NCBI GenBank assembly: GCA_002440965.1
Contig: DJWJ01000016.1
Span: 7,409 to 71,408 of the forward strand
Reading direction: 5' to 3'
DNA from: Candidatus Omnitrophica bacterium UBA6233
Lineage (GTDB): Bacteria > Omnitrophota > Gorgyraeia > Gygaellales > Profunditerraquicolaceae
DNA: 64,000 bases
Shown here: in pieces, positions 8,349 through 50,657 of the stretch
Layout of the letters: each line of letters starts with the position of its first letter
How positions within the stretch are numbered: the first letter of the stretch is position 1
Notes under the pieces: model-generated
Told to the model about the DNA's origin: nothing
Database searches by the model: none
The model's input: the letters and a program-made list of their open reading frames with translations, nothing else
Made by a program: the position numbers and the translations under genes

Positions 8349-9378
8349 ATTAAAAAAAACAGTTTTGGCCTTGGGCCCGCAAACCAAAAATACAATTTGT
8401 TTTGCCAAAGGCAGCAATGCGTATGTCAGCCCAGTGCATGCGGAGCTAAGTTCTCCTAAAGATTTGTTAGCTTTTGAAAAAGACGCAAAATGCTTTCTTA
8501 AGAAGCATCCTAAGATTATAACCTGTGATTTACATCCTGAATATCAGTCAACCAAATTTGCTCTTTCTCTCTACGGTAGCTACAAGCCTGTATTAATTCA
8601 GCATCACCATGCGCATATTGCCGCTTGCATGGCAGAGAATGGGTTGAAAGATCAAAAAGTAATCGGCGTTGCTTTTGACGGCACAGGCTTAGGATCTGAC
8701 AATAACATTTGGGGCGCAGAATTTTTAGTCTGTAACTATAAAACATTTGTTAGGCAGGCGCACTTAAAAGAGATCCCGCTTGTTGGCGGAGAGAGAGCGG
8801 TTTTAGAACCCTGGAGAGTATTAGCTGCCTGGTTTGATTTTAATAAGAGTCAGGCCTTAAGAAAAATATATCAAGCCGGAATCAATTCCCCCCTAGCTAG
8901 TAGTATGGGCAGGTTATTCGACGCAGTTGCCAGCCTTATTTTAAATAAGAAAAAGGCGAGTTTCGAGGCAGAGTTGCCAATTGCCTTAGAAAAGCTCGCT
9001 GAAAAAGGCAAACTTCTAAGCTCAGGTTATAGATTTAACCTGAAAAAATACAAAGATAACTATATTATTGATCCGTCCGGAATATTTAAGCAGATCCCTA
9101 AGGATTTAAAATCAGGAATCTTGCGTAAAGATGTTGCCCTGAATTTCCATCGTAGTGTAGCCAGCATGATCGCGCAAACCTGTTTAGTTCTAAGAAGAAG
9201 AAATAAAACCAAGAAAGTAGTTTTATCCGGAGGAGTTTTTCAAAACAGGCTTTTACTGAATTTTAGTTCGGATTTATTAAATGAAGAAGGTTTTGAAGTT
9301 TTTACGCATCAAAAATTATCCTGCAATGATTCGTGTGTTTCTTTGGGGGAGGCAATTATAGCAGGTTTAAGGAGTTAA
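8317..9378 (+). CDS. hypF: HypF-like carbamoyltransferase, C-terminal Kae1/YgjD-like domain only (truncated HypF)
   Basis: 'LIQHHHAHIAACMAENG' and 'GVAFDGTGLGSD' match the HypF C-terminal domain. No acylphosphatase, Zn-finger or YrdC domains are encoded upstream. Start placed at the Met after the previous stop. Confidence 0.55.
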   Translation: MKTVKIKLPVKLKKTVLALGPQTKNTICFAKGSNAYVSPVHAELSSPKDLLAFEKDAKCFLKKHPKIITCDLHPEYQSTKFALSLYGSYKPVLIQHHHAHIAACMAENGLKDQKVIGVAFDGTGLGSDNNIWGAEFLVCNYKTFVRQAHLKEIPLVGGERAVLEPWRVLAAWFDFNKSQALRKIYQAGINSPLASSMGRLFDAVASLILNKKKASFEAELPIALEKLAEKGKLLSSGYRFNLKKYKDNYIIDPSGIFKQIPKDLKSGILRKDVALNFHRSVASMIAQTCLVLRRRNKTKKVVLSGGVFQNRLLLNFSSDLLNEEGFEVFTHQKLSCNDSCVSLGEAIIAGLRS

Positions 9379-9381
9379 GCC

Positions 9382-9591
9382 ATGTGCTTGGGTATACCTA
9401 TGAAGATCAGGAAGATTAACGGAGATTTTGCCGAGGTGGAATCCGGAAGGCTTTTACGCAATGCCAGCATTCAGATGTTACCCGGTTTAAAAGTGGGTGA
9501 TTATGTGCTGGTGCACGCCGGTTTTGCTATCCAAAAGGTTAATCCGGAAAGGGCTAGGGAAACTTTAAAGATTGCCAATGAGATACGTTGA
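9382..9591 (+). CDS. hypC: hydrogenase maturation factor HypC
   Basis: N-terminal 'MCLGIP' with essential Cys2, and 'VGDYVLVHAGFAI'. Confidence 0.8.
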   Translation: MCLGIPMKIRKINGDFAEVESGRLLRNASIQMLPGLKVGDYVLVHAGFAIQKVNPERARETLKIANEIR

Positions 9592-10666
9592 TGAATTCCG
9601 AAATCCTAAGTTAGTCGAAAAAATCGCCGCAAGAATATCCAGCATCAACCCCGGGGATAAAATTGATATTATGGAGGTTTGCGGAACCCATACACAGAAT
9701 TTTTACCGTTTTGGGTTAAGAGAGCTTTTGCCTAAAAATGTCAGGTTAATTTCCGGACCCGGTTGTCCGGTGTGTGTAAGCCCGCAAAAGTATATTGATT
9801 CCGCTATTGAATTGGCCAAAGATAAGGATGTAATTATCGCTACCTTTGGCGATATGTTGCGCATGCCCGGAACCAATTCTTCGCTGGAAGAAGAAAAAAC
9901 CGAGTTTGGAAATGTCCGTATAGTCTATTCTCCTTTGGACACATTGTTTATAGCCAAAAAGAATCCCCACAAGAAAATAGTGTTTTTGGCGGTTGGTTTC
10001 GAGACCACCGCACCCACCATCGCCCTAACAATTTTATCCGCAAAAAAAGAGAAACTAAAGAATATTTTCTTTCTCTCGTCGCTTAGACTAATCCCGCCGG
10101 CTATGCGGTATTTGTTATCCGATAAGAGGCTCAAAATCGACGCATTTTTATGCCCGGGTCATGTTTCGGCAGTTATCGGAACGCAAGATTATGAATTTAT
10201 CCCGAAGAAATATGGAAAAGCCTGTTGTATCGCTGGTTTTGAGCCAGTGGATATTTTGGAAGGAATATGTAGAATTCTAGAGCAAATTATCCTAAATAAG
10301 CCATATGTGGCTAATCAATATACGCGCATAGTTACTAAAACCGGGAATACCCGGGCAAAAAGAGTCACTAACCGTGTGTTTGGAATAAGAGATTCTGAAT
10401 GGCGCGGCCTTGGTTTTATACCGGATAGCGGTCTAGAATTAAAAAGAGAATTTTCTGTTTTTGACGCAAAACGCGTTTTTTCTATTAGCGACAAGAAAAT
10501 CAAGGAAAAAATAACAAGTAGCTGCAGATGCGCTGATATTCTAAAAGGTGTTATTTCTCCGGAAGATTGTCCTTTATTTGTAAGAGCGTGCAATCCGGAT
10601 AATCCTATTGGCCCATGTATGGTTTCCAGCGAAGGAACGTGTAATGCATATTATAGGTATCGTTAG
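9572..10666 (+). CDS. hypD: hydrogenase maturation factor HypD
   Basis: 'CGTHTQNF', 'GPGCPVCV', 'FETTAP' and a C-terminal Cys-rich region; 364 aa. Confidence 0.85.
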   Translation: MPMRYVDEFRNPKLVEKIAARISSINPGDKIDIMEVCGTHTQNFYRFGLRELLPKNVRLISGPGCPVCVSPQKYIDSAIELAKDKDVIIATFGDMLRMPGTNSSLEEEKTEFGNVRIVYSPLDTLFIAKKNPHKKIVFLAVGFETTAPTIALTILSAKKEKLKNIFFLSSLRLIPPAMRYLLSDKRLKIDAFLCPGHVSAVIGTQDYEFIPKKYGKACCIAGFEPVDILEGICRILEQIILNKPYVANQYTRIVTKTGNTRAKRVTNRVFGIRDSEWRGLGFIPDSGLELKREFSVFDAKRVFSISDKKIKEKITSSCRCADILKGVISPEDCPLFVRACNPDNPIGPCMVSSEGTCNAYYRYR

Positions 10667-17067: not shown

Positions 17068-18036
17068 ATGGAAGGAATTAAAATTATAAAACGGCCTCGC
17101 CTAAAGAAGCCCTATTTGATCGTTGCTTGGCCGGGAATGGGGGAAGTTGCTTTTAGGGCCGCCACCTATCTGGTTGAAAAGTTGAATGCCGAAGAATTTG
17201 CTTCGTTGAATGCGGAAGACTTCTTTTATCTGGCCGGAAGCATGGTTAAGGATGGCTTGTTAAGTGCATCAGATTTACCAGAGAGTAAATTTTACTTCTG
17301 GAAGAATAGAAAAGGGAAAAACGATCTTATAATATTTTTGAGTAATGCCCAGCCGGATTTAGCCAGGGCCGAAGGATACTCCAAGATTATTATTCAGGTA
17401 GCTAAGAGTTTTAAGGTTGATAAGGTAGTTAGCTTTGCCTCTATGCCGCAGGGAATCGATCATACCCAAGATCCCAGGTTGTGGTTTGCCGCTACCTCGC
17501 AAGATTTAAGCAATACCCTAAAGAAATTCAACTTTAAAAGCTTGAGAGAAGGTTTGATTAGCGGAATGAACGGACTTTTTCTGGGTATAGCTAAAAGAGA
17601 AGGTATCGATGGGTTCTGTCTTTTGGGAGAAATCCCGCTTTATACCATTCAGATCGAAAACCCAAAAGCCTCCAGAGCTGTTTTAGAGGCTTTGTTTGCG
17701 ATTACCGGAATTCAGGTTGATTTATCCGGTTTATTTATACAGGCACAGGCCATGGAAGACGAAATCAATAAACTTTTGGATTACTTGAAGCTTGGGTCGG
17801 CAGCTAACGGGCCAATCGGAGAGGAAGATATAGAAAAAATAAAAAAGACTCTGAACCAGCTTACCAAGCTTCCCGTTTCAGTCAAAGAAAGGATTGAGCA
17901 GTTTTTTTCCCAGGCTAAAACCGATGTATCAAAGGCCCGTGAACTTAAAGTCGAACTCGATAAGTGGAATGTTTATAAAGAATACGAAGACAGATTTTTG
18001 GATCTATTCAAGAAGACCGGTGAAAAAAACAACTAG
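17068..18036 (+). CDS. PAC2-family (proteasome-assembly-chaperone-like) protein
   Basis: 'PYLIVAWPGMGEVAFRAATYLV' is characteristic of bacterial/archaeal PAC2-family proteins. Confidence 0.5.
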   Translation: MEGIKIIKRPRLKKPYLIVAWPGMGEVAFRAATYLVEKLNAEEFASLNAEDFFYLAGSMVKDGLLSASDLPESKFYFWKNRKGKNDLIIFLSNAQPDLARAEGYSKIIIQVAKSFKVDKVVSFASMPQGIDHTQDPRLWFAATSQDLSNTLKKFNFKSLREGLISGMNGLFLGIAKREGIDGFCLLGEIPLYTIQIENPKASRAVLEALFAITGIQVDLSGLFIQAQAMEDEINKLLDYLKLGSAANGPIGEEDIEKIKKTLNQLTKLPVSVKERIEQFFSQAKTDVSKARELKVELDKWNVYKEYEDRFLDLFKKTGEKNN

Positions 18037-19030
18037 AATATTATTGGGGCATGGCAGCGGCGGAAGGCTCACCCATAATTTCATTAAGCAAGTGCTGCTT
18101 GAAAAATTAAAGAATCCAATTCTAGGGGAATTGGCTGATAGCGCGGTCATAAATTACAAAGAACAAGTCGCTTTTACTACGGATTCTTTTGTGGTGAGCC
18201 CCTTATTTTTCCCCGGAGGAGACATTGGCAAGCTTTCGGTATCCGGCACAGTTAATGATCTGGTCATGCTAGGAGCTGTTCCGGAGTATCTTTCTTTGGC
18301 CTTGATTGTAGAGGAGGGGTTAGAGCAGAAAATTCTTGAGAGGATAATTTGTTCGGTAGCCATTCAGGCTAAAAACTCAAGGGTGCAGATTGTTACCGGA
18401 GATACAAAAGTCGTAGAAAGACTGGCCGCCGATAAATTATTTATTAACACTTCAGGCCTAGGTAGGTTAATTTCTTCGAGAAGGTTGTCCTTGAAGGGTA
18501 TCTCGCCCGGCGATAAAATTATCATTACCGGAAATATCGCCGAACACGGTTTGAGTATTCTTGCTAAAAGAAAAGAATTGGGCTTAAACTTTAATATTAA
18601 AAGCGATTGCGCAAGCCTCAACGGATTGATTATCCCGCTCTTAAGGATCACCAAGGCAATAAAATTTATGCGCGACCCGACGCGAGGAGGGATAGCGACA
18701 ACTTTAAATGAAATCTCCGAAGGCTCCGGGTTAGGAATTATTCTCGAGGAGAAAGACATTCCGATATCTCCGAAGGTAAGGGCGGCTTCGGAATTATTGG
18801 GCATAGATCCTCTTTATGTCGCTAATGAAGGAAAGGCTTTGTTGGTCGTAGAACCTAAAGAAGCGCAAAGAATCGTGGCTGTTCTTAGAAAAAATCCCTT
18901 AGGTCGTAACGCTAAAATTATCGGGACAGTTAAAAAGACGCCGCGAGGCAGGGTTGTGTTGCGCACCGCTTTTAATACCGAGCGTATTTTGGATATGTTA
19001 ACTTCTGATCCATTACCGAGGATATGTTAA
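18020..19030 (+). CDS. hypE: hydrogenase maturation factor HypE (PurM-like), GTG start
   Basis: 'ILLGHGSGG', PurM-like fold motifs and the invariant C-terminal 'PRIC'. GTG at 18020 chosen; 17-nt overlap with the upstream gene. Confidence 0.85.
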   Translation: MKKTTRILLGHGSGGRLTHNFIKQVLLEKLKNPILGELADSAVINYKEQVAFTTDSFVVSPLFFPGGDIGKLSVSGTVNDLVMLGAVPEYLSLALIVEEGLEQKILERIICSVAIQAKNSRVQIVTGDTKVVERLAADKLFINTSGLGRLISSRRLSLKGISPGDKIIITGNIAEHGLSILAKRKELGLNFNIKSDCASLNGLIIPLLRITKAIKFMRDPTRGGIATTLNEISEGSGLGIILEEKDIPISPKVRAASELLGIDPLYVANEGKALLVVEPKEAQRIVAVLRKNPLGRNAKIIGTVKKTPRGRVVLRTAFNTERILDMLTSDPLPRIC

Positions 19031-19774: not shown

Positions 19775-19803
19775 TTGACAATCACAGCGGATTGTGATAA
19801 AAA
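19775..19803 (+). promoter_or_regulatory. candidate promoter (-35 TTGACA, extended -10 TGaTAAAAA) with an embedded palindromic operator ATCACAGCGGATTGTGAT
   Basis: TTGACA at 19775-19780; the 17-nt spacer is itself an inverted repeat TCACA-N6-TGTGA; -10-like ATAAAA. Confidence 0.4.
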
Positions 19804-19880
19804 ATCACTATAGACACAATACTTAGCGTAATTTTTCAGGAGGCATTAAACTTAAATTGAAAAAATAGGCGTAACGAAAA

Positions 19881-19914
19881 GGGCTCTTTTGGCAGGATGA
19901 AGAGCCTTTTTTTG
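19881..19914 (+). terminator. rho-independent terminator / attenuator hairpin
   Basis: GGGCTCTT-ttggcaggatg-AAGAGCC followed by TTTTTTTG. Lies about 110 nt after the previous stop and about 60 nt before the next start. Confidence 0.55.
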
Positions 19915-19976
19915 TAGTAAAAGAAATCTCGTCACAAAATCAAGCTGGCGGGGACTAAAAAAGGATTTCTAAAACA

Positions 19977-20966
19977 ATGAGAACGGTCGGGTTAACCTAC
20001 GATTTAAAGACAGATTATCAATTTAAAGAAGGCGATCCTCTTGATGCTAACGCTGAATTCGATCATCCATCGACTATTGATATTATTGCTTGCGCAATTG
20101 AAGCAAACGGTTTTAAAGTAGAGAGGATAGGTAACGCCGGGAATCTTCTCGAAAAATTATCTTCTTTAAGGGTGGACATTGTTTTTAATATCTCCGAAGG
20201 ATTAACCGGGAGAAACCGTGAATCCCAAGTACCCATATTACTTGAGATGGCCGGAATTCCTTTTGTTGGCTCAGACGCTCTTACTCTTGGGCTTACTTTG
20301 GATAAGGTTATGGCCAAAAAGATTTTTATCGCTGAGAAAATACCCACTCCAAAATTTATTGAAACAAGCTCAGTGGAAGAATTAGCAAATACCAATCATT
20401 ACAAGTTTCCTTTAATCGTAAAGCCGCGCTTTGAGGGTTCTTCCAAAGGTTTAAGCGAAAGTTCCCGGGTTGAAAATAGAGATGACTTGCTTAAGCAGGT
20501 TGGATATATTGTTAATGCTTATAAACAACCAGTGCTGGTTGAAGAGTTTATATCCGGTCAGGAATTTACTGTGGCTCTTGTAGGAAACGATCCTGCGGAA
20601 GTTCAGCCAATCGTTCAAATTAAAATCGACGGAAAACTAAAATTAAACGACAGGTTTTACACCTTTGCCCGTATTACTTCCGATAGATTGGAATATATTT
20701 GTCCGGCAAAAATCCCTCAAGAATTAAAGAAGAAGATCGATGATCTGGCCTTAAGGACTTATAAAGCGGTAGATTGCCGTGATTTCGGACGGGTTGATTT
20801 TCGGGTTGACAATGAAGGCAAGCCCTATGTCTTAGAGATAAACCCTTTGCCTTCCCTGTCTACCGAAGACGTATTTATGCTTTTAGCCAAAAACACAGGT
20901 ATTACTTATGAGCAGATGATTGGCAAAATCTTAAATAGCGCAATTAAAAGGCATAATCTCGACTAA
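19977..20966 (+). CDS. D-Ala-D-Ala-ligase-like ATP-grasp enzyme, paralog 1
   Basis: Ddl-family architecture: N-domain 'VDIVFNISEGLTGRNRESQVPILLEMAGIPFVGSD', central 'PLIVKPRFEGSSKG', C-terminal 'FGRVDFRVD...YVLEINPLP'. Confidence 0.65.
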   Translation: MRTVGLTYDLKTDYQFKEGDPLDANAEFDHPSTIDIIACAIEANGFKVERIGNAGNLLEKLSSLRVDIVFNISEGLTGRNRESQVPILLEMAGIPFVGSDALTLGLTLDKVMAKKIFIAEKIPTPKFIETSSVEELANTNHYKFPLIVKPRFEGSSKGLSESSRVENRDDLLKQVGYIVNAYKQPVLVEEFISGQEFTVALVGNDPAEVQPIVQIKIDGKLKLNDRFYTFARITSDRLEYICPAKIPQELKKKIDDLALRTYKAVDCRDFGRVDFRVDNEGKPYVLEINPLPSLSTEDVFMLLAKNTGITYEQMIGKILNSAIKRHNLD

Positions 20967-21968
20967 ATGAAGATTGCCCTAACGTATAATTTAAAAAAGA
21001 AGGATACGACAAAACCCGCGGATTATTTTTCGGAGTGTGACTCCGAAGAAACCATTAACGCCATCACCGGGGCTATCCGCAGAAAAGGTCATAATGTCGA
21101 GGCAATCGACGTAGAATATCCCAAGTTATTCTCTTATTTTAGGAAAAATTCGGTAGATATGGTTTTTAATATTGCCGAAGGCAAGTCAGGTAAGTTTCGC
21201 GAGTCGGAAGTTCCGGCGATATTAGATTACCTAAAAATTCCTTACACAGGTTCAGATACATTCTCCTTAGCCTTAGCTTTGAATAAGGCCCTTACCAAGA
21301 AGATTTTAAAAGCCGAAAATATCCCGACTCCGAATTTCCAGGTTTTTATTAAAGGAACGGAAGAATTGAACCCGGATTTAAGATTTCCTTTGATCGTAAA
21401 GCCAAATTGCGAAGGTTCGGCTAAAGGGATTAGCAAGCTCAATGTGGTTAATAACACGGAGGATTTATTCAAGCGGGTTAAAGATATTCTTAGCGTATAT
21501 AAACAGGAAGCCCTGGTGGAAGAATTCATCGAAGGCAAAGAGCTTACCGTAGGGATTTTGGAAAACGGCAAGACCCGCGTCCTGCCGATCTTAGAAATTG
21601 ATTTCTCCGACTGTAAGAATAGCGGAGAATATTTTTATTCCTGGAAGATGAAGGAATACCAGGGAAATAAAGAGTTGGGGTTAGTGCCGACTTTTCACTG
21701 CCCGGCGCGCCTGGATTCGGAGACTGAAAAAGCGGTTAAGGATGTCGCACTCAGGACGCATCGCGCAGTCGGCTGCCTGGATATTTCACGTACCGATATA
21801 CGTTTGGACAAATTCAATGTGCCTTATGTTCTGGAGATTAATCCTCTCCCGGGTTTAGATCCTAAGGAATCAAATTTTCCAATTATGGCGTATGCCGCGG
21901 GAATGAAATACGAAGATCTTATTGAGGCAATAATTCTAAGCGCCTCTGAAAGGAAAGGCTTAAATTGA
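20967..21968 (+). CDS. D-Ala-D-Ala-ligase-like ATP-grasp enzyme, paralog 2
   Basis: Collinear with paralog 1: 'VDMVFNIAEGKSGKFRESEVPAILDYLKIPYTGSD', 'PLIVKPNCEGSAKG', 'YVLEINPLPG'. Its start codon directly abuts the previous stop. Confidence 0.65.
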   Translation: MKIALTYNLKKKDTTKPADYFSECDSEETINAITGAIRRKGHNVEAIDVEYPKLFSYFRKNSVDMVFNIAEGKSGKFRESEVPAILDYLKIPYTGSDTFSLALALNKALTKKILKAENIPTPNFQVFIKGTEELNPDLRFPLIVKPNCEGSAKGISKLNVVNNTEDLFKRVKDILSVYKQEALVEEFIEGKELTVGILENGKTRVLPILEIDFSDCKNSGEYFYSWKMKEYQGNKELGLVPTFHCPARLDSETEKAVKDVALRTHRAVGCLDISRTDIRLDKFNVPYVLEINPLPGLDPKESNFPIMAYAAGMKYEDLIEAIILSASERKGLN

Positions 21969-23152
21969 GCAGCGTTCAGGCAATTGAAAATCAAAAATTG
22001 CAGCAGGAAAACGCTAATGTTGTACGCACAAGCAGAAAGCCCCGGGACTACCAGCAGATAGGTATTTATAAGGACATTAACCCTTTGGACTGGGAAGATT
22101 GGCATTGGCAGATAAAGAACAGGATTTGCACCAAAGATGTTCTGGCGCAGATAATCAGTTTGACTCCCGACGAGGAAAAGGGGATTGATAAGGCTAGGGG
22201 CCGTTTATCCATGGCTATAACTCCTTATTGGGGTTCTCTTCTTGATCAGGAAGACGCCAATTGTCCGATCAGGCGTCAATCTGTTCCGGTAATCCAGGAA
22301 TCCATGGTTACTCCGCATGAAATGACTGATCCTTGCGCCGAAGACAGAGATTCTCCGGCTCCGCATTTGGTGCACCGCTATCCAGATAGGGTTCTACTAT
22401 TGGCGACTGACCATTGCGCTATGTATTGCCGGCATTGCACGCGCCGGCGTCTGGTTGGCGATCATGAGGTCAAAGATGCAAATTCTGCGGATAGGTTTGA
22501 TGCAGCTATCGAATACATAAAAGCCAACCGTAAAATAAGGGATGTGCTGATATCCGGAGGCGACCCGTTAATTCTGGAAGACGAAGAATTGGAAAAGCTG
22601 CTGCAAAAGATTCGTTCTATATCGCACGTGGAATTTTTAAGGATCGGCACGCGTATCCCGGTGACTCTTCCTCAGCGCATTACGGAAAACCTGGTGAATA
22701 TGCTTAAAAAATATTCGCCGATCTGGATGAGTATACATTTTAATCACCCCAAGGAGATTACCAAACGCTGCAAGATTGCCTGCGATATGCTTTCGGAGGC
22801 AGGCGTTCCCTTAGGGAGTCAAACGGTCTTGCTTAAGGGTGTTAATGATCGGCCCTTCATAATGAAAAAGCTGGTTCATGAATTGTTGCAGATAAGGGTA
22901 AGGCCGTATTATATTTATCAGTGCGATCCGGTGCGCGGCACGCAGCATTTCCGGACTCCCGTAGCTACCGGGATAAATATCATGGAGAAGTTGCGCGGAC
23001 ATACTTCCGGATACGCTGTCCCTACCTATGTTATTGATGGTCCTGGCGGAGGCGGAAAAATTCCCGTGGGGCCGAATTATATTCTTTCACAGGCTAAAGG
23101 AAAATACGTCCTGCGTAATTATAAGGGTAAGATTTACACCTACCTAGAATAA
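21965..23152 (+). CDS. kamA: lysine 2,3-aminomutase (KamA-family radical SAM/PLP enzyme)
   Basis: 'WEDWHWQIKNRI', 'PYWGSLL', 'CPIRRQSVP', radical SAM 'CAMYCRHCTRRR', and 'YYIYQCDPVRGTQHFRTP'. Confidence 0.8.
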   Translation: MSSVQAIENQKLQQENANVVRTSRKPRDYQQIGIYKDINPLDWEDWHWQIKNRICTKDVLAQIISLTPDEEKGIDKARGRLSMAITPYWGSLLDQEDANCPIRRQSVPVIQESMVTPHEMTDPCAEDRDSPAPHLVHRYPDRVLLLATDHCAMYCRHCTRRRLVGDHEVKDANSADRFDAAIEYIKANRKIRDVLISGGDPLILEDEELEKLLQKIRSISHVEFLRIGTRIPVTLPQRITENLVNMLKKYSPIWMSIHFNHPKEITKRCKIACDMLSEAGVPLGSQTVLLKGVNDRPFIMKKLVHELLQIRVRPYYIYQCDPVRGTQHFRTPVATGINIMEKLRGHTSGYAVPTYVIDGPGGGGKIPVGPNYILSQAKGKYVLRNYKGKIYTYLE

Positions 23153-23221: not shown

Positions 23222-25177
23222 ATGGACGTTAAGAATAAACGCAATTTTATTCTTTTAGGTCATGCCCAATCAGGCAAAACCAGCCTCGCCGAAAGTATAC
23301 TTTATTTCTCCAAAGCTACTACCCGCAAAGGAAAAATCGAAGATGGTTCGACTACTAGCGATTATAGCTTTGATGAAATCGAGAAAAAACATTCCATAAA
23401 TTTAAGTTTGCTCTTTTGTGATTATCAGGGCGCGCGTTTGCAGATAGTGGATACCCCTGGATACGCGGATTTTTCCGGAGAGGTTATTTGTGGAATCCGG
23501 GCTGTAGATAGCGCGGTCATCGTGGTGGATAGCGCAAACGGTGTGCAGGCAGGTACGCAGCGTGGCTGGGAAATGTGCGAAGAGGCCAATATCCCTTGTA
23601 TGATTTTTATCAACAAGGTGGATAAAGAAGGGGCGGATGTTAATAAAATTTTAGCGGATTTAAAATCCAGCCTCTCCAAAAACTGCGTTATAATTCAGTC
23701 TTTGGAAGATTCTCTTTTGGTGGAAGCGATTGCCGAAAGCGATGACAGTTTGCTGGAAAAATATCTGGCGACCTTGCGTCTATCACAGGAAGAGATTAAG
23801 AATGGCTTAGCTCAGGCCGTAAATAAGCGCAAAATTTTTCCGGTCTTGGCAGGTTCAGCGCTTACTGATAAAGGAATTAAAGATTTACTGGATGATATTC
23901 TGCAGTATCTGCCTGGTCCTTTGGAGAGAAATCCGGTTAAAGCGTTTAATCCTTTAAAACCCGAAGAAGCCAAAGAGGTGGTTTTAAAAGAGGATGCTCC
24001 GTTTTCCGCGCTTGTTTTTAAAAACATCTCGGATCCTTTTGTGGGCCAGCTTACTTTGCTACGGGTTTTCTCGGGAAAGCTTTTAAGCGATACCGGGTTT
24101 TATAACGTAAGCCGGAAATCAAAGGAAAGAATCGGTCCGATTTATATTTTACAGGGCAAAGAGCAGCGTCAAATTGAAGCTGCAATCAGCGGCGATATTG
24201 TAGCTATCGCCAAATTGAAAGATACGGGTGTAGGGGATTCGCTCTCAAGAGACAAAGAGCAATTTTTATTCGAACCGCTAGTTTTTCCGGAAGCGGCAAT
24301 TTCCGCTTCGGTTAAGCCTAAGAGCCGCGAGGATGAGGAAAAAATATCCGATGCTTTGCATAAGCTGGCGGCCGAGGATCATACCTTTGGAGTAAGGCAT
24401 GATCCGCAAACCAAAGAATTGATTATTTCGGGGATGGGCGATTTGCATTTGTCAGTAATGGTTGCCCGGATGAAAAAAAGATTTAATGTCGTTGTCGATT
24501 TAGGGACCCCGAAAGTTTCCTATAAAGAAACGATTACGAAGAGTATAAAAGTTCAGGGAAAATTTAAGCGCCAGTCCGGCGGCCGCGGCCAATACGGCGA
24601 TTGTTGGATTGAGGTTGAACCCCTGGGAAGAGGAAAAGGTTTTGAGTTCGTGGATAAGATATTCGGAGGTGCAATTCCGCGTAACTTCATTCCTTCCGTC
24701 GAAAAAGGCGTACGGCAAGCAGCCTTGGAAGGAGCGGTTGCCGGACATCCGATTGAAGATATCCGGGTAACTCTGGTTGACGGCTCTTATCATGAAGTCG
24801 ACTCGTCGGATATGGCTTTTCAAATTGCTGGAGCCATGGCTTTACGTAAGGCAGTAATGGATGCCGGTCCGGTATTGTTGGAGCCGATAATGGATGTGGA
24901 GATAAATATCCCGGAAGATTGCCTGGGGATTATTTCCGGAGATATTAATTCCAGGCGCGGCAGAGTTATGGGGATGGAAATTAAAGGTAAACAGCAGATT
25001 ATTAAGGTTCAGGCGCCGCTGGCGGAGATGTTTAAATACGCCAATGACCTGCGTTCAATAACCGGAGGCCGCGGGACCTACACCATGCGATTTTCGCACT
25101 ACGAAGAAGTACCGCATAAAATCGCTGGCTCGATTATTACTCAATATCAAGCCTCAAAAAAACAGGAAGAACAGTAA
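23222..25177 (+). CDS. elongation-factor-G-like translational GTPase (EF-G paralog)
   Basis: G1 'GHAQSGKTSL', G3 'DTPGYADF', G4 'NKVDK', and EF-G domain IV/V-like C-terminus; 651 aa. Confidence 0.7.
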   Translation: MDVKNKRNFILLGHAQSGKTSLAESILYFSKATTRKGKIEDGSTTSDYSFDEIEKKHSINLSLLFCDYQGARLQIVDTPGYADFSGEVICGIRAVDSAVIVVDSANGVQAGTQRGWEMCEEANIPCMIFINKVDKEGADVNKILADLKSSLSKNCVIIQSLEDSLLVEAIAESDDSLLEKYLATLRLSQEEIKNGLAQAVNKRKIFPVLAGSALTDKGIKDLLDDILQYLPGPLERNPVKAFNPLKPEEAKEVVLKEDAPFSALVFKNISDPFVGQLTLLRVFSGKLLSDTGFYNVSRKSKERIGPIYILQGKEQRQIEAAISGDIVAIAKLKDTGVGDSLSRDKEQFLFEPLVFPEAAISASVKPKSREDEEKISDALHKLAAEDHTFGVRHDPQTKELIISGMGDLHLSVMVARMKKRFNVVVDLGTPKVSYKETITKSIKVQGKFKRQSGGRGQYGDCWIEVEPLGRGKGFEFVDKIFGGAIPRNFIPSVEKGVRQAALEGAVAGHPIEDIRVTLVDGSYHEVDSSDMAFQIAGAMALRKAVMDAGPVLLEPIMDVEINIPEDCLGIISGDINSRRGRVMGMEIKGKQQIIKVQAPLAEMFKYANDLRSITGGRGTYTMRFSHYEEVPHKIAGSIITQYQASKKQEEQ

Positions 25178-25182
25178 AATTT

Positions 25183-25884
25183 ATGAAGATAAGCGTAATC
25201 GGTTTACCGGAGTTAAATCCCGGTAAGCATAATGTTAAAGATTCTCGTTTGGACGAAGTGGATAGTATAACCAAAGCTAAAAAGAAGACCTATGTCCAGG
25301 CTGAAGTTGTGGAAGAAGCAGCGGCAATTGACGCAGATGCAATTTTAGTCGTTAAAGATTCAGCGAGCGACCTTATCCTTAAGGATCTGGAATTTGTGGA
25401 AACTCGGCTTACGCGTTCGACGGAAGAAGCGGAAAAAGCTTTATTCAATAAACTAAAAGCGGCTTTAGAAAAAGAGCAGTTTATATTTAACGCGGGGCTT
25501 GCGGAAACTGAAAAAAAAGAATTGATCAAATACGGTTTGCTTACCGCGAAACCGGTGATTGTTGCCGAGGCCAAAGACCTGGAAGATAAAAATGCCCTTT
25601 TGCTTAGAGTATTAAAGGAAGGCGGATATATCAGTTTTTTTACTACCGGTGAAAAAGATACCCGGGCCTGGCTCATTCGAAACGGCGCAAACGCCTGGGA
25701 GGCCTCGGGGGCTATACACTCGGATATACAACAGGGGTTTATTCGGGCTGAAATCATTGCTTTTAAGGATTTTATGGAGTGCGGCGGAGAAAATAGAGCC
25801 AAACAAGCCGGCAAAATGCGTCTGGAGTCAAAAGAATATATAATGCAGGATTGTGATTTAGCCAATTTTAGGTTTAATAAATAG
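25183..25884 (+). CDS. YchF-like protein retaining the helical and TGS/C-terminal domains but lacking a functional P-loop G domain
   Basis: The C-terminus 'RAWLIRNGANAWEASGAIHSDIQQGFIRAEII...AGKMRLESKEYIMQDCDLANFRFNK' matches the YchF C-terminal domain. The N-terminus 'KISVIGLPELNPGKHN' is a degenerate Walker A; 233 aa versus about 360 aa for YchF. Confidence 0.5.
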   Translation: MKISVIGLPELNPGKHNVKDSRLDEVDSITKAKKKTYVQAEVVEEAAAIDADAILVVKDSASDLILKDLEFVETRLTRSTEEAEKALFNKLKAALEKEQFIFNAGLAETEKKELIKYGLLTAKPVIVAEAKDLEDKNALLLRVLKEGGYISFFTTGEKDTRAWLIRNGANAWEASGAIHSDIQQGFIRAEIIAFKDFMECGGENRAKQAGKMRLESKEYIMQDCDLANFRFNK

Positions 25885-30763: not shown

Positions 30764-30780
30764 TAAGTAAGGGAGGGGGT

Positions 30781-31119
30781 ATGAGACATATAAGCCAGGG
30801 AAAATCCAGCCTCGGGATGGAAGCGAACATAGCCGCTGTCTTAAGCTACCTTTTCGGTTTTATTACCGGCCTTATTTTCTATGCTTTGGAAAAAGAAAAT
30901 AAATTCGTGCGGTTTCATGCCGCGCAGTCGACCATAGCCTTCGGGTTTTTGTTTATGGTAGGCGTTGTGGCAAGATTCCTGCCGTTAGTAGGATTTATAA
31001 TCATGACATTGGTGGGTATAATAGAAATAGTTCTTTGGATTATCCTCATGATTAAAGCCTATCGAGGGGAATATTTTGAACTGCCGATAATCGGCGAATT
31101 TGCCCGAAGAAAATCCTGA
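30781..31119 (+). CDS. DUF4870-family small membrane protein
   Basis: 'AAVLSYLFGFITGLIFY...FVRFHAAQS' and two TM segments. Confidence 0.5.
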   Translation: MRHISQGKSSLGMEANIAAVLSYLFGFITGLIFYALEKENKFVRFHAAQSTIAFGFLFMVGVVARFLPLVGFIIMTLVGIIEIVLWIILMIKAYRGEYFELPIIGEFARRKS

Positions 31120-33872: not shown

Positions 33873-35534
33873 ATGCGGAAAATCTTGATTATTAGTAAAA
33901 GCGCTTTGCTGTTTAGTTTTATTTTATCAGCATCTTTTTTGTTAAGGATGACACCTTCTAAAGGGTGCGTTCTTGAGTTTGTTTCTGACAGCGCCTTCAA
34001 TTATCGCATGACCGCATCGGTTATTCAAAAGGGGTCCGTACCTATAATTGATCGCTTGAGTATTTATCCTGAAGGCAAAAACATAAGAAATTTTCTTCCC
34101 ATCGGGCTTTACCATGCAGGAGCAGTTTTTCACAGGTTTTTAAATATCTTTAGGCAAATCCCGCTTAATGAATCTTTGCTGATTTTTGCCGCTTTTTTTA
34201 GTTCCTTGATTTGCGTCCCTGTTTATTTCTTATCGTTAGAGATCTATAGAAATGAAAAAATAATAGCCTTCCTTTGTGCGTTTTTATCCGCGATTATCCC
34301 CGCTTATCTGCATAGGACGTTCTGTTATATGTATAGATATGAAGTGCTGGCTGCGCCGTTACTTTTTATGAGTTTGCTATTTTTTATCATGGCCTTTAGA
34401 GAGAATAACGGTAAGCTGCGGTTTACTTGTTATTTTGGGACGTCCCTTTTTTGGCTGATGTTAGCTTCTTGGGTTTGGAGGCTGTATGTTTTATTCTTAA
34501 TTGCCTATCTTATCAGTATCGCTTATCTTTGTCTGAAACGCCGAAATTTGCTCGGAAATGAATGGATAAAAATTATTATTTCCGGGGTATGCGTTCTGCT
34601 GTTATTTTTCGCATTGGGCTTGGCTCAAATCCCGAGATATTCCGGATTGCCGTATCTCCGGACTTTTTTTGAGGTTTTCATACAACGCCTGTATCCTCCG
34701 TATAATTTTAGTCAATTCTCCAAAGTTATTTATTACGTAAACGAATTGTCAGGAGTTAGTATCTTAGGACTATTGGGGACTAAGTTTCTGTCTTTTTCAG
34801 GAGTATTCGCTATTTTTTACTTATACGCCTGCTTTAGAAAACAGAAGTTTAATCCGCAAAAATTTATTTTGCAGTTTTTCATAATCCTTTTCCTCGTGCT
34901 CACCCTGCTTTTTTCGAGATTCAAGATAATCTTGGGGCCCTTGATCGCTTTGTCTTTGGGAGAAAGTCTGTTTTTTGTTTTTCATAATTACAGGGGAATA
35001 ATGAAGAAGATTTTATTGGGTCTTTTGGTCATAATTTTTGTTAAAACAGGGTGTGATGCCTGGAGATTGGCCAGTACGAGATTTAAATATGCCGGTATGG
35101 ATGCCGAATTAAAGCAAGTTATCTCGGCGGTGAATAGGTTGACCTCGAAAAACGCCGTGATACTTTGCGATTGGGGGCAGGGTTATTCCATTCAGACGTA
35201 TTGTAATCGTCCGACAATAACCGACGGCCTCTTGGAGAGCCCGGAGATAATCAAAAGAATTATAAGGGTGGCCAAGGTTTTCAACTCTTATGATGAACAG
35301 GCGCTACGGTTGTTTTGTAAGGAGTATGGTGTAACTCATATCTTGGTTGCCAAAAGGTTGGATTACGCATTTGCATATTCACAATATTCAGGCCGCGGTT
35401 TTACCATGGGCAAGGGCGCTAACGATAAGGACGTGCCCTTAATATATAAATTATTTTATCGTTCGCCCGATTTAAAAAGAATCGATTTCTTGTATGAAAA
35501 TAAAGGATTTATTTTATTCGCGCTGAAAGATTGA
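33873..35534 (+). CDS. polytopic membrane glycosyltransferase with STT3/PglB/AglB-like 'WWDYG' region (putative oligosaccharyltransferase)
   Basis: About 11 predicted TM helices. 'CDWGQGYSIQTYCNRPTITDG' aligns to PglB '[21 protein letters not shown]' (G-Y-x3-x-Y-x4-T-x2-DG pattern). Confidence 0.4.
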   Translation: MRKILIISKSALLFSFILSASFLLRMTPSKGCVLEFVSDSAFNYRMTASVIQKGSVPIIDRLSIYPEGKNIRNFLPIGLYHAGAVFHRFLNIFRQIPLNESLLIFAAFFSSLICVPVYFLSLEIYRNEKIIAFLCAFLSAIIPAYLHRTFCYMYRYEVLAAPLLFMSLLFFIMAFRENNGKLRFTCYFGTSLFWLMLASWVWRLYVLFLIAYLISIAYLCLKRRNLLGNEWIKIIISGVCVLLLFFALGLAQIPRYSGLPYLRTFFEVFIQRLYPPYNFSQFSKVIYYVNELSGVSILGLLGTKFLSFSGVFAIFYLYACFRKQKFNPQKFILQFFIILFLVLTLLFSRFKIILGPLIALSLGESLFFVFHNYRGIMKKILLGLLVIIFVKTGCDAWRLASTRFKYAGMDAELKQVISAVNRLTSKNAVILCDWGQGYSIQTYCNRPTITDGLLESPEIIKRIIRVAKVFNSYDEQALRLFCKEYGVTHILVAKRLDYAFAYSQYSGRGFTMGKGANDKDVPLIYKLFYRSPDLKRIDFLYENKGFILFALKD

Positions 35535-47361: not shown

Positions 47362-47368
47362 ATAGTTT

Positions 47369-47500: not shown

Positions 47501-47515
47501 AAAAGAGGAGGAGTT

Positions 47516-48976: not shown

Positions 48977-48990
48977 GCTAAAGGAAGGAT

Positions 48991-49328: not shown

Positions 49329-49340
49329 AGCTATTTATTC

Positions 49341-50138: not shown

Positions 50139-50191
50139 CACCCGGCCTTAAAGGGTAGGCCGGTGTGCGCTTTCTGCGCAAGGAGGATTAA

Positions 50192-50629: not shown

Positions 50630-50657
50630 AACAATGCTCCGCGCATAGCGCGGAGTT

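What the first reader, a model, noticed from the sequence alone, without database searches (positions are those of the whole stretch)
19977..23152. Lysine 2,3-aminomutase preceded by two tandem Ddl-like ATP-grasp ligases: candidate beta-lysine (beta-amino acid) peptide/conjugate pathway
Two paralogous D-Ala-D-Ala-ligase-family ATP-grasp genes abut each other (stop/start adjacent). They overlap a full-length KamA-family radical SAM aminomutase. KamA makes beta-lysine. ATP-grasp ligases form amide bonds using acyl-phosphate chemistry. Together they could build a beta-lysine-containing dipeptide/oligomer (an osmolyte or cell-wall component) or attach beta-lysine to an acceptor. The upstream region carries a promoter with a palindromic operator and a terminator-like hairpin, suggesting regulated expression.
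Basis: partly seen in the sequence, partly recalled or inferred. Interest (0 to 1): 0.7.

Follow-up and report, generated by a model that had tools for sequence, protein, structure and literature searches.

The report
Beta-lysine peptide-making operon, uncharacterised
Three tightly coupled genes in a Candidatus Omnitrophota genome, one enzyme that should turn lysine into beta-lysine and two ATP-driven ligases that are not ordinary cell-wall D-Ala-D-Ala ligases, form a module that recurs, often as single fused proteins, in several bacterial and archaeal phyla and probably makes a beta-lysine-containing peptide that I could not find described.

Summary
Three ORFs sit at 19977-20966 (AG1), 20967-21968 (AG2) and 21965-23152 (KamA), joined by TAA-ATG abutment and a TTGA overlap. 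AG1 and AG2 have the Ddl fold and keep the ATP, Mg and catalytic residues. They score below every curated Ddl cut-off and their substrate-pocket residues differ from Ddl. KamA keeps the Fe-S, PLP and lysine-binding residues of lysine 2,3-aminomutase but lacks the C-terminal zinc and tetramerisation domain.

The functional link is strongly supported:
- More than 100 protein clusters elsewhere are KamA-ligase fusions, in both domain orders.
- 28 of 152 representative relatives carry two ligase domains in one chain.
- The trio is contiguous in all 70 related species genomes that extend far enough.

Relatives carry one to three ligase domains per KamA. Some add an N-acetyltransferase, a deacetylase or an S51 peptidase.

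A housekeeping Ddl role, a cell-wall role and an EF-P role are all unlikely. The product is unknown. A small cytoplasmic beta-lysine peptide is the best guess.

The upstream promoter and terminator are conserved as a roughly 110-nt leader with a mini-ORF. The palindromic "operator" is not conserved.

No literature on this module was found. I rate it a new variant of known enzyme kinds, of moderately high interest.

The parts
19775..19803 (+). Promoter: -35 TTGACA (19775-80), a 17-nt spacer, then an extended -10, TGaTAAAAA (19795-19803).
   Evidence: Read directly from the sequence. CTTGACA is present in 77 of 79 related loci at a fixed distance from the downstream motifs, and the block is conserved in the alignment. 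The simple consensus scan missed it because the -10 hexamer lacks the final T.
19781..19798 (.). Palindrome ATCACA-gcggat-TGTGAT inside the promoter spacer.
   Evidence: Found only in the window (with its near-identical copies L001-L004) and in the two nearest species-level relatives, L005 and L006. The left arm is not conserved. The right arm coincides with the extended -10. It is probably not a conserved operator.
19807..19916 (+). Conserved leader RNA of about 110 nt. It contains AGGAGG (19838-43), the UUG mini-ORF TTG AAA AAA TAG (19857-68), and an intrinsic terminator hairpin with T-run (19877-19913).
   Evidence: Alignment of 68 species. Only the terminator helix is structurally conserved. 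Covariance model R1 finds exactly one copy per Omnitrophota locus, always upstream of AG1, at 61-88 bits. It finds none elsewhere in the 64-kb window and no significant match in non-Omnitrophota loci (one marginal hit, L094, 22.7 bits, E 0.22). A mini-ORF was found by pattern in 58 of 68 species; where a GGAGG-like motif was scored, it starts 11-17 nt (mostly 12-14) downstream of it. There is no Rfam family above threshold. The fold z-score is -3.6.
19977..20966 (+). AG1: a Ddl-fold ATP-grasp ligase of the 'AG1-type' partner subfamily.
20967..21968 (+). AG2: a Ddl-fold ATP-grasp ligase of the 'core' subfamily. This subfamily also holds ligase halves of tandem fusion proteins, and the archaeal KamA-fused ligases resemble AG2 more than AG1.
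   Evidence: It clusters with 104 domains, including halves of tandem fusions; the KamA-fused ligase domains of L085 and L087 are 43% identical to AG2 against 38-39% to AG1. Median identity is 83% across 72 species.
21965..23152 (+). KamA-family radical SAM, PLP-dependent lysine 2,3-aminomutase, in a short form without the C-terminal zinc and tetramerisation domain.
   Evidence: TIGR03820 scores 526.2 against a 525.4 cut-off. It is 57% identical to the solved C. subterminale enzyme 2A5H. C125, C129, C132, R134, D293, D330 and K337 are kept, C268 is replaced by Arg, and the protein ends at the equivalent of residue 367. Median identity is 83% across 70 species.

Best explanation
The three genes form one self-contained pathway that converts L-lysine into a beta-lysine-containing peptide. 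The proposed steps follow, each marked as shown or inferred.

1. Transcription. It starts at a near-consensus promoter and must read through a conserved leader terminator. The sequence features are shown; the regulation is inferred.
2. Translation. AG1, AG2 and KamA are translationally coupled by TAA-ATG abutment and a TTGA overlap. The junctions are shown; coupling is inferred.
3. Aminomutase step. KamA uses a [4Fe-4S] cluster, S-adenosylmethionine and PLP to move the alpha-amino group of lysine to C3, giving beta-lysine (3,6-diaminohexanoate). The residues are shown; the activity is inferred.
4. Docking. This KamA lacks the C-terminal domain that tetramerises the clostridial enzyme. In most of the fusion proteins (102 of 108) a ligase domain follows the KamA core, where that C-terminal domain sits in the clostridial enzyme. 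KamA therefore probably docks on the ligases and hands beta-lysine over directly. This is inferred.
5. Ligation. AG1 and AG2 are both catalytically intact Ddl-fold ligases. Each should activate a carboxylate as an acyl phosphate with ATP and join it to an amine. Their substrate pockets differ from Ddl and from each other, so they probably catalyse two different successive ligations, most likely as a Ddl-like heterodimer. This is inferred.
6. Product. The most likely product is a small cytoplasmic beta-lysine di- or tripeptide, or a short oligomer. Its role may be as a compatible solute or an organic polycation. This is inferred with low confidence.
For: Gene fusions:
- P0231 and more than 100 further clusters (at 90% identity) are KamA-ligase fusions. 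They are named from Thermoplasmatota, Methanocellales, Woesearchaeota, Nanoarchaeota, Spirochaetales and Deltaproteobacteria.
- 102 have KamA at the N-terminus and 6 have it at the C-terminus, so both orders exist.
- 28 of 152 representative relatives carry two ligase domains in one chain, and the two halves fall in different subfamilies.

Conserved adjacency:
- AG1-AG2-KamA are contiguous in all 70 Omnitrophota species loci that extend far enough.
- A Thermoplasmatota-like contig has KamA-ligase plus ligase-GNAT.
- Woesearchaeota has KamA-ligase plus ligase.
- Deltaproteobacteria has KamA-ligase plus two ligases.
- Methanocellales has KamA-ligase plus ligase plus GNAT.
- L096 has KamA-ligase plus ligase plus a deacetylase-GNAT fusion.
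- L098 and L099 have a single AG1-type ligase followed by a KamA of the same short form, 62% and 53% identical to the window's.

Substrate:
- R134, D293, D330 and K337 are kept in the window KamA and in 118 of 120 related KamA domains.

Ligase competence:
- K97, K144, E180, R255, D257, E270 and N272 of E. coli DdlB are kept in every ligase domain examined.

Not Ddl:
- The scores are 190 and 198 bits against a 243-bit cut-off.
- Identity to DdlB is 26-27%.
- Pocket residues differ.

A peptide-like product with free amines:
- Neighbours in relatives include an S51 peptidase and N-acetyltransferases or a deacetylase; a ligase-ligase fusion without KamA sits next to an S58 peptidase.

Strong constraint:
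- AG2 and KamA (83% median identity) are more conserved than the neighbouring EF-G paralogue (77%), PurH (74%) and FolC (54%) in the same genomes.

Precedents:
- Ngg acetylates glutamine and forms a peptide bond to make the osmolyte NAGGN (PMC8070244).
Against: - No biochemical data exist, and nothing identifies the second substrate or the product.
- All the sequences analysed come from metagenome-assembled genomes or metagenome contigs.
- Within Omnitrophota the whole region is syntenic, so adjacency there is weak evidence on its own.
- The heterodimer is inferred only from tandem fusions. AlphaFold2 on one natural fusion gave confident domains but an unconfident mutual arrangement (pTM 0.54).
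- The osmolyte role fits poorly with the freshwater and groundwater origin suggested by some of the isolate names.
- No transporter, carrier protein or regulator is consistently linked.
- Some relatives of the ligase pair occur without KamA (L091), so the ligase family is not restricted to beta-lysine.
Confidence: 0.6

Rival explanations
1. Polymer synthesis. The ligases build a cyanophycin-like or poly-beta-lysine polymer, used as a nitrogen store or polycation, rather than a defined small peptide. One active site would extend the chain and the other would decorate it.
For: - There are two distinct active ligase sites per module.
- In L097 an S51 peptidase with a weak cyanophycinase match (45 bits against a 126.6 cut-off) lies directly after a ligase-KamA fusion.
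- In L091 an S58 peptidase lies next to a ligase-ligase fusion. From my own knowledge, S58 is the DmpA/BapA beta-aminopeptidase family.
- The number of ligase domains per KamA varies from one to three.
Against: - There is no Mur-ligase-type second domain and no primer-binding N-domain as in cyanophycin synthetase.
- The peptidase neighbours are single cases in distant lineages, and the Omnitrophota operon has none.
- All characterised Ddl-fold enzymes among the structural matches make dipeptide-size products.
Confidence: 0.15
2. Macromolecule modification. Beta-lysine is attached to a protein, such as a translation factor or ribosomal protein, with the ATP-grasp ligases standing in for EpmA. 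This would resemble EF-P beta-lysylation or RimK-type tailing.
For: - The KamA lacks the C-terminal multimerisation domain, as YjeK/EpmB does (PMC2821294).
- In this lineage the operon is followed by an EF-G paralogue and a YchF-like gene.
- All three proteins are very highly conserved.
Against: - The KamA is far closer to true lysine 2,3-aminomutase (526 bits; 57% identity to 2A5H) than to EpmB (246.8 bits against a 369.3 cut-off).
- EF-G is missing between KamA and the YchF-like gene in about a third of related loci: 40 loci have EF-G and 61 have the YchF-like gene.
- No efp or epmA was found among the window ORFs that were scanned.
- The module occurs in archaea, which from my own knowledge use hypusine on aIF5A.
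Confidence: 0.1
3. Cell-wall building block. The ligases make a beta-lysine-containing dipeptide for the peptidoglycan stem or cross-bridge, or are simply divergent housekeeping D-Ala-D-Ala ligases whose adjacency to KamA is incidental.
For: - Ddl is the closest family by sequence and by fold.
- The organism appears to make peptidoglycan: an L,D-transpeptidase with a LysM domain lies at 40521-41333.
- No other ddl lies in the 64-kb window. The rest of the genome could not be checked.
Against: - Both proteins are below every curated Ddl cut-off.
- Omega-loop and D-Ala2-site residues are changed.
- There is no mur, fts or fem gene context.
- The same module, fused to KamA, occurs in Thermoplasmatota, Methanocellales and DPANN archaea. 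From my own knowledge these lack murein.
- Fusion in both domain orders rules out incidental adjacency.
Confidence: 0.05
4. Specialised bioactive metabolite. The module makes a streptothricin-like or other beta-amino-acid antibiotic or toxin, and the acetyltransferases seen in relatives act as self-resistance.
For: - One relative, L093, places a ligase-KamA-like fusion beside a capreomycidine-synthase/GntC-like PLP enzyme. That context looks like natural-product biosynthesis, and the D293 equivalent there is Gln.
- GNAT neighbours occur in three lineages. From my own knowledge, streptothricin resistance works by acetylating beta-lysine.
Against: - The trio is present in every sampled related Omnitrophota species whose contig extends far enough (70 loci) and is more conserved than housekeeping neighbours.
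- No exporter, resistance gene or tailoring genes lie in the operon.
- It is also present in small DPANN genomes.
Confidence: 0.05

Closest known systems
Pyrrolysine biosynthesis, PylB plus PylC
   Different: - PylB is not a KamA-family aminomutase, and it makes 3-methyl-D-ornithine rather than beta-lysine (my own knowledge).
- Pyl has one ligase plus the dehydrogenase PylD. Here there are two ligases and no dehydrogenase.
AblA/AblB pathway for the compatible solute N-epsilon-acetyl-beta-lysine
   Same: A lysine 2,3-aminomutase of the LAM type, not the EpmB type, makes beta-lysine, which is then derivatised on an amine to give a cytoplasmic solute. ablA clusters with ablB (PMC2821294). Some relatives of this module also carry a GNAT.
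   Different: - The window operon has no acetyltransferase.
- The partners here are ATP-grasp ligases, which form peptide bonds at the cost of ATP.
- The GNATs in relatives do not match an AblB model. Their best matches are weak ones to PseH and SpeG-like models.
- This KamA lacks the C-terminal domain.
D-alanine-D-alanine ligase (Ddl, VanA family)
   Different: - The scores are below all curated cut-offs.
- An insertion of about 12 residues replaces the GGxS loop at the N-terminus.
- RNRES replaces GGEDG.
- Omega-loop and carboxylate-site residues are changed.
- The proteins occur as two different paralogues or as tandem fusions.
- They are linked to KamA rather than to mur or fts genes.
EpmB (YjeK) with EpmA, beta-lysylation of EF-P
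   Same: A KamA-family enzyme without the C-terminal multimerisation domain supplies beta-lysine to an ATP-dependent ligating enzyme (PMC2821294).
   Different: - The EpmB model scores 246.8 against a 369.3 cut-off.
- The ligating partner is an ATP-grasp enzyme, not a lysyl-tRNA-synthetase paralogue.
- There is no efp or epmA nearby.
- The module also occurs in archaea.
Ngg/AsnO pathway for the dipeptide osmolyte NAGGN, and carnosine synthase
   Same: Ngg both N-acetylates an amino acid and forms a peptide bond to make a cytoplasmic dipeptide solute (PMC8070244). The ligase-GNAT fusion in L085 has a comparable logic. From my own knowledge, carnosine synthase is an ATP-grasp ligase that uses a beta-amino acid.
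   Different: The enzyme subfamilies and substrates are different. Neither system includes an aminomutase. The window operon has no GNAT.
Cyanophycin synthetase with cyanophycinase
   Same: An ATP-grasp-based, non-ribosomal synthesis of a basic amino-acid-rich product, paired with an S51 peptidase. An S51 gene follows the ligase-KamA fusion in L097.
   Different: There is no Mur-ligase-type domain and no N-domain. The S51 match is far below its cut-off. Nothing shows that a polymer is made.

Membership tests
D-alanine-D-alanine ligase (Ddl, EC 6.3.2.4) | Three-domain ATP-grasp fold of the Ddl type | tested here: met
D-alanine-D-alanine ligase (Ddl, EC 6.3.2.4) | ATP, Mg2+ and catalytic residues (E. 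coli DdlB K97, K144, E180, R255, D257, E270, N272) | tested here: met
   All are kept in AG1, AG2 and every related ligase domain examined. The DdlB sequence used was verified against 2DLN/1IOV.
D-alanine-D-alanine ligase (Ddl, EC 6.3.2.4) | Score at or above the curated NCBIfam Ddl family cut-offs | tested here: not met
   Against NF002378, AG1 scores 189.6 and AG2 198.5, with a cut-off of 243. Against TIGR01205 they score 168 and 164, with a cut-off of 245.65.
D-alanine-D-alanine ligase (Ddl, EC 6.3.2.4) | D-Ala pocket residues: omega-loop K215-Y216, S281-L282 and the GGxSxE N-terminal loop | tested here: not met
   AG1 has R-I and D-V. AG2 has K-(E)-Y and S-N. The GGxS loop is replaced by YDLK plus an insertion of about 12 residues, although a Glu aligned with E15 is kept. 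The roles of these residues are taken from my own knowledge of the DdlB structures.
D-alanine-D-alanine ligase (Ddl, EC 6.3.2.4) | Genomic association with murein synthesis (mur, fts) and restriction to murein-containing organisms | tested here: not met
   No mur or fts genes lie next to the operon. The same ligase family, fused to KamA, is found in Thermoplasmatota, Methanocellales and Woesearchaeota.
D-alanine-D-alanine ligase (Ddl, EC 6.3.2.4) | Synthesis of D-Ala-D-Ala | not testable with these tools
   This needs an enzyme assay or complementation of a ddl mutant.
Lysine 2,3-aminomutase (KamA/AblA, EC 5.4.3.2) | CxxxCxxC radical SAM cluster motif and the PLP-binding lysine (K337) | tested here: met
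   C125, C129, C132 and K337 align to identical residues in the window protein.
Lysine 2,3-aminomutase (KamA/AblA, EC 5.4.3.2) | Lysine-specific binding residues R134, D293 and D330 | tested here: met
   All three are conserved (window D321 and D358 correspond to D293 and D330). Their roles come from my own knowledge of the 2A5H structure and of glutamate 2,3-aminomutase, where the two Asp are replaced.
Lysine 2,3-aminomutase (KamA/AblA, EC 5.4.3.2) | Curated equivalog score (TIGR03820) | tested here: met
   526.2 bits against a cut-off of 525.4, so only marginally met. The glutamate and arginine aminomutase models are well below their cut-offs.
Lysine 2,3-aminomutase (KamA/AblA, EC 5.4.3.2) | C-terminal zinc and tetramerisation domain (C268 with C375, C377, C380) | tested here: not met
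   The protein ends at the equivalent of residue 367, and C268 is Arg. C268 is not conserved in the module-linked KamAs. There is no room for a missing exon or frameshift, because the next gene starts 70 nt downstream.
Lysine 2,3-aminomutase (KamA/AblA, EC 5.4.3.2) | Conversion of L-lysine to beta-lysine | not testable with these tools
   This needs an anaerobic enzyme assay.
EpmB (EF-P beta-lysylation aminomutase) | Equivalog score, and clustering with efp and epmA | tested here: not met
   TIGR03821 scores 246.8 against a 369.3 cut-off. No efp or epmA domain was found among the annotated ORFs of the window. The clustering criterion is from PMC2821294.
AblA/AblB N-epsilon-acetyl-beta-lysine system | An adjacent beta-lysine N-acetyltransferase (AblB, GNAT) | tested here: not met
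   There is no GNAT in or beside the window operon. GNATs linked to the module in archaeal relatives give only weak generic matches.
Cyanophycin synthetase | An ATP-grasp domain combined with a Mur-ligase-type domain in one enzyme | tested here: not met
   AG1 and AG2 carry only Ddl-type ATP-grasp domains. The Mur-ligase-family gene downstream is FolC-like.
Known RNA families (Rfam 15), for the leader | A match at the gathering score | tested here: not met
   Only two tRNAs in the window reach gathering score. The best leader match is L10_leader at 24.4 bits against 44.

The most novel reading that the evidence does not exclude
KamA plus Ddl-like ligases may be an unrecognised pathway for a new beta-lysine-derived metabolite. 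The module often appears as one fused polypeptide and carries one to three ligase domains. It is named from Omnitrophota, Thermoplasmatota, Methanocellales, DPANN archaea, Deltaproteobacteria (Desulfobacterota) and Spirochaetes, and related ligase-ligase fusions come from Planctomycetes and Gammaproteobacteria. Candidate products include an N-epsilon-(beta-lysyl)-lysine-type isopeptide, an oligo-beta-lysine polycation or a cyanophycin-like polymer. In Omnitrophota the operon is additionally controlled by a lineage-specific leader in which a 3-5 codon UUG mini-ORF ends just before an intrinsic terminator.
Probability: 0.5. Interest if true: 0.75.

Novelty: new variant of a known kind. Interest (0 to 1): 0.62.

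Why it matters
Beta-lysine is known in a few settings: a methanogen osmolyte, the EF-P modification, antibiotic building blocks and a lysine-fermentation intermediate.

If the inference holds, there is a further, widespread use. Beta-lysine would be fed directly into dedicated ATP-grasp ligases to make a peptide nobody has described. The organisms that carry the module (Omnitrophota, DPANN, Thermoplasmatota) are largely uncultured, and their physiology is mostly guessed from annotation.

- Annotation. The ligases are currently labelled 'D-alanine-D-alanine ligase' or 'ATP-grasp domain-containing protein'. That labelling wrongly suggests murein synthesis in archaea and hides the pathway.
- Testability. 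The module is small at two or three genes, self-contained, and open to direct test by anaerobic heterologous expression and mass spectrometry.
- Enzymology. The ligases would add beta-amino-acid ligases to the biocatalysis toolbox.
- Regulation. The conserved leader is a separate lead for an unstudied regulatory mechanism in a candidate phylum.

Tried and rejected
1. Distant loci by alignment. Diverse alignments A1 and A2 had no stretch conserved enough for the scan. The narrower A3 worked, but the best 80 of 470 hits are all close relatives: most are named Omnitrophota, and the rest carry generic or other MAG labels. The single genome-collection scan therefore gave no other phyla.
2. Literature. 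Eight searches pairing aminomutase, KamA or beta-lysine with ATP-grasp, D-Ala-D-Ala ligase, Omnitrophota, DPANN or dipeptide solutes found nothing on this module ([rejected], 16, 17, 37, 38, 46, 47, 68).
3. EF-G and YchF-like adjacency as a clue to a translation role. Rejected, because EF-G is absent from that position in about a third of related loci.
4. Palindromic operator. Rejected as a conserved element.
5. Leader as a riboswitch. No Rfam match, and no conserved structure beyond the terminator.
6. Anti-phage defence. No PADLOC hits.
7. A third Ddl-like gene in the window. None found.
8. GNATs of archaeal relatives as AblB. No specific match.
9. AlphaFold2 on a natural tandem ligase fusion, to test a Ddl-like pseudo-dimer. 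Inconclusive: pTM 0.54 from a 10-sequence alignment.
10. Folate link. PurH, FolC, MnmE and FolE lie downstream, and PabB and PabC occur in L099. The synteny appears only in the Omnitrophota loci and the L098/L099 contigs that share their PurH-FolC synteny, not in the archaeal, deltaproteobacterial or spirochaete contigs carrying the module.
11. The M20 deacylase upstream as a dedicated peptidase. It looks like a generic ArgE/DapE enzyme and is separated from the operon by unrelated genes.

Full report
**Source and observation**

The window comes from a Candidatus Omnitrophota metagenome-assembled genome. The AG1 protein is identical to NCBI entries of that name, and the same contig was recovered from several samples.

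The three ORFs in the finding are where it says they are:
- AG1 at 19977-20966 (329 aa)
- AG2 at 20967-21968 (333 aa)
- KamA at 21965-23152 (395 aa, TTG start)

The AG1 stop abuts the AG2 start as TAA-ATG. The AG2 stop overlaps the KamA start as TTGA, behind a purine-rich ribosome-binding stretch. The three genes are therefore packed for coupled translation.

**What the ligases are**

Both hit Pfam Dala_Dala_lig_C and are 41% identical to each other.

Against NCBI's curated Ddl models they score 190 and 198 bits, where the cut-off is 243. They are far below every equivalog cut-off.

I aligned the ligases to E. coli DdlB.
- Residues kept: every ligase domain I examined keeps the ATP, Mg and catalytic residues K97, K144, E180, R255, D257, E270 and N272.
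- Residues changed:
  - The omega-loop K215-Y216 is R-I in AG1 and K-(E)-Y in AG2.
  - S281-L282 is D-V in AG1 and S-N in AG2.
  - GGEDG becomes RNRES.
  - The N-terminal GGxS loop is replaced by YDLK plus an insertion of about 12 residues, although a Glu aligned with E15 remains.

The assignment of these DdlB residues to the D-Ala sites is from my own knowledge of the DdlB structures. The conclusion is that both are active amide-forming ligases of the Ddl fold, but they are not D-Ala-D-Ala ligases by the family's own criteria.

**What the aminomutase is**

It reaches the lysine 2,3-aminomutase equivalog cut-off only marginally (526.2 against 525.4). It is well below the glutamate, arginine and EpmB cut-offs.

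It is 57% identical to the solved C. subterminale enzyme. It keeps C125, C129 and C132, the carboxylate-binding R134, the epsilon-ammonium-binding D293 and D330, and the PLP lysine K337.

It ends at the equivalent of residue 367 of 416, and the zinc ligand C268 is Arg. The C-terminal zinc and multimerisation domain is therefore missing. Such truncation is a hallmark of YjeK/EpmB (PMC2821294), but in sequence this protein belongs with the true aminomutases.

**Evidence that the three proteins work together**

A search of 1.8 billion cluster representatives with AG1 found 1149 clusters at E<1e-30.
- Many of the best 150 are 600-790 aa proteins with two ligase domains. In my domain parse, 28 of 152 proteins have two domains.
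- Two representatives were ligase-KamA fusions, one in each order.

Searching with the KamA-ligase fusion P0231 returned more than 100 further 90%-identity clusters with that architecture. They are named from Thermoplasmatota, Methanocellales, Woesearchaeota, Nanoarchaeota, Spirochaetales and Deltaproteobacteria.
- 102 have KamA first and 6 have the ligase first.
- 118 of 120 KamA domains keep D293, all 120 keep D330 and K337, and 116 keep R134.

Contexts retrieved for individual members:

| Locus | Lineage | Arrangement |
|---|---|---|
| L085 | Thermoplasmatota-like | KamA-ligase + ligase-GNAT fusion |
| L087/L088 | Woesearchaeota | KamA-ligase + ligase, beside MscL and ion exchangers |
| L089 | Deltaproteobacteria | KamA-ligase + two ligases |
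| L094 | Methanocellales | KamA-ligase + ligase + GNAT |
| L095 | Spirochaetales | KamA-ligase alone |
| L096 | unnamed | KamA-ligase + ligase + deacetylase-GNAT fusion |
| L097 | unnamed | ligase-KamA + S51 peptidase |
| L098, L099 | probably other Omnitrophota | one AG1-type ligase directly followed by a short KamA, 62% and 53% identical to the window's |

In 80 Omnitrophota species genomes the trio is contiguous wherever the contig extends far enough: 72 have AG2 and 70 have KamA.

In those same genomes AG2 and KamA (median 83% identity) are better conserved than the adjacent EF-G paralogue (77%), PurH (74%), the YchF-like gene (61%) and FolC (54%). AG1's own figure is biased upward, because the loci were ranked on AG1.

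**Ligase subfamilies**

Clustering of 183 ligase domains gives several groups:
- A large 'core' group of 104 domains. It contains AG2 and one half of most tandem fusions. The archaeal KamA-fused ligase domains are closer to AG2 (43% identity) than to AG1 (38-39%).
- An AG1 group of 33 domains.
- Several other 'partner' groups: the other halves of tandem fusions, and the archaeal partner that is sometimes fused to GNAT.

The recurring design is therefore a core ligase plus a variable partner, which fits a Ddl-like heterodimer with two different active sites. This is inference. AlphaFold2 on one natural tandem fusion gave well-folded halves but no confident mutual arrangement (pTM 0.54).

**Mechanism I consider most likely**

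KamA makes beta-lysine. Lacking its own multimerisation domain, it docks on the ligases, to which it is covalently fused in many lineages.

AG1 and AG2 each activate a carboxylate with ATP and form an amide. Together they produce a beta-lysine di- or tripeptide or a short oligomer that stays in the cytoplasm, since no exporter or carrier is linked.

Three features of the relatives fit a peptide with free amino groups that is made and turned over:
- the variable number of ligase domains (one to three)
- the occasional N-acetyltransferase or deacetylase
- the S51 peptidase in L097; an S58 peptidase also sits next to a ligase-ligase fusion that has no KamA nearby (L091)

Known precedents for the logic:
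- PylB and PylC, a radical SAM lysine mutase plus an ATP-dependent ligase (PMC8225853)
- AblA and AblB (PMC2821294)
- Ngg, which both acetylates and forms a peptide bond to make an osmolyte (PMC8070244)
- carnosine synthase, from my own knowledge

The physiological role, whether solute, polycation or nitrogen store, is a guess. Strong conservation and a near-consensus promoter suggest an abundant product. The freshwater and groundwater origin suggested by some isolate names does not particularly favour an osmolyte.

**Rivals**

- Housekeeping Ddl or a cell-wall role is unlikely. The ligases fail the family criteria, there is no mur context, the genes are fused to KamA, and the module occurs in archaea. 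I could not check whether the genome has another ddl. The window has none, although it does encode an L,D-transpeptidase.
- EF-P-like protein modification is unlikely. The EpmB score is too low, no efp or epmA was found, and the EF-G adjacency is not conserved.
- A polymer cannot be excluded. The evidence is the S51 and S58 neighbours and the two active sites.
- A specialised antibiotic fits one divergent relative, L093, but not a gene set present and highly conserved in every sampled related Omnitrophota species.

**Upstream region**

It is conserved in 77 of 79 loci.

The palindrome recurs only in the two nearest species-level relatives. Its conserved half is the extended -10.

Downstream lies a conserved leader of about 110 nt:
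- AGGAGG at 19838-43.
- A UUG mini-ORF, found in 58 of 68 species and starting mostly 12-14 nt after the GGAGG motif. It reads MKK* here (19857-68), MEKIG* in 24 species and MEK* in 9.
- A stop codon usually 4-13 nt before an intrinsic terminator (19877-19913).

In most of the closer relatives aligned, the AG1 start codon follows the T-run by only about 8-10 nt; across all loci the gap ranges up to about 140 nt. The window has an extra 60 nt or so there.

Only the terminator helix is structurally conserved. A covariance model finds exactly one copy per Omnitrophota locus, always in front of AG1. It finds none elsewhere in the window, no significant match in other phyla, and none in the single-ligase lineages. 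Rfam has no match.

The architecture suggests that operon expression needs terminator read-through, possibly set by a ribosome on the mini-ORF. That is a hypothesis, and the spacing between the Shine-Dalgarno sequence and the start codon is long.

**Novelty and verdict**

I found no paper on a KamA plus Ddl-like ligase module in the searchable library. Public annotations call these proteins 'D-alanine-D-alanine ligase', 'ATP-grasp domain-containing protein', 'KamA family radical SAM protein' or 'hypothetical protein'.

The enzyme kinds and the general logic are known. This combination, its breadth and its product are not. I rate it a new variant of a known kind, with interest about 0.6.

Noticed in passing
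window 19775-19916: A lineage-specific conserved leader lies in front of AG1. It has a near-consensus extended -10 promoter, AGGAGG, a 3-5 codon UUG mini-ORF (MKK* here, MEKIG* or MEK* in most species) and an intrinsic terminator that in many relatives ends only about 8-10 nt before the AG1 ATG. There is one copy per Omnitrophota locus and no Rfam family. It is a candidate translation-coupled attenuator.
   Followed up: partly
window 23222-25177: A short EF-G paralogue of 651 aa lies directly after KamA. It passes the NF009381 subfamily cut-off but matches in two stretches. It is present at this position in only about two thirds of related species (40 of 61 loci that have the next gene), so it is an accessory insertion rather than part of the operon.
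   Followed up: partly
window 25183-25884: A YchF-like protein of 233 aa in which only the C-terminal domain matches (PF06071). The N-terminal GTPase P-loop looks degenerate. It is conserved downstream of KamA in 61 related loci.
   Followed up: no
window 6587-7495: A stand-alone protein with the C-terminal domain of phosphatidylglycerol lysyltransferase (MprF-type, PF09924) and no membrane flippase part. This is another lysine-transferring enzyme type in the same window. No link to the operon was established.
   Followed up: no
window 44880-51482: A run of two beta-ketoacyl synthases, a B12-binding radical SAM enzyme, a putative cyclase and a short-chain dehydrogenase. It looks like an unusual lipid or polyketide-type cluster.
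   Followed up: no
window about 30780-31100 (L001 20805 onward): A small MamF/MmsF-family (magnetosome membrane protein family) gene lies just downstream of GTP cyclohydrolase I.
   Followed up: no
window 33873-35534 and 40521-41333: An STT3-type oligosaccharyltransferase homologue and an L,D-transpeptidase with a LysM domain. The latter indicates that the organism makes peptidoglycan.
   Followed up: no
whole window: Extreme strand bias. 52 of the 56 ORFs of 150 aa or more are on the + strand. Of the four minus-strand ORFs, three lie inside or largely overlap annotated + strand genes and are probably spurious; the fourth is the Mg-chelatase-like gene at 38157-39686. GC skew is positive in every 2-kb bin.
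   Followed up: no
L091 8200-9432; L097 4495-5196; L096 8587-10872: In distant relatives the ligase genes are followed by other enzymes: an S58 (DmpA/BapA-type) peptidase, an S51 (cyanophycinase/PepE-type) peptidase, or a 761-aa histone-deacetylase-family plus GNAT fusion. These hint at a peptide with acetylatable amines.
   Followed up: partly
L093 3852-8088: A divergent ligase-KamA-like fusion, in which the D293 equivalent is Gln, sits beside a GntC/capreomycidine-synthase-like PLP enzyme and a RaSEA-like radical SAM protein. It is probably a different, arginine-derived natural-product pathway built on the same aminomutase-plus-ligase principle.
   Followed up: no
window 8287-10666 and 17894-19030: Hydrogenase maturation genes are scattered upstream: a HypF C-terminal part only, HypD and HypE. 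The longest HypE ORF overlaps the preceding PAC2-family gene, and gene callers start it at about 18020.
   Followed up: no
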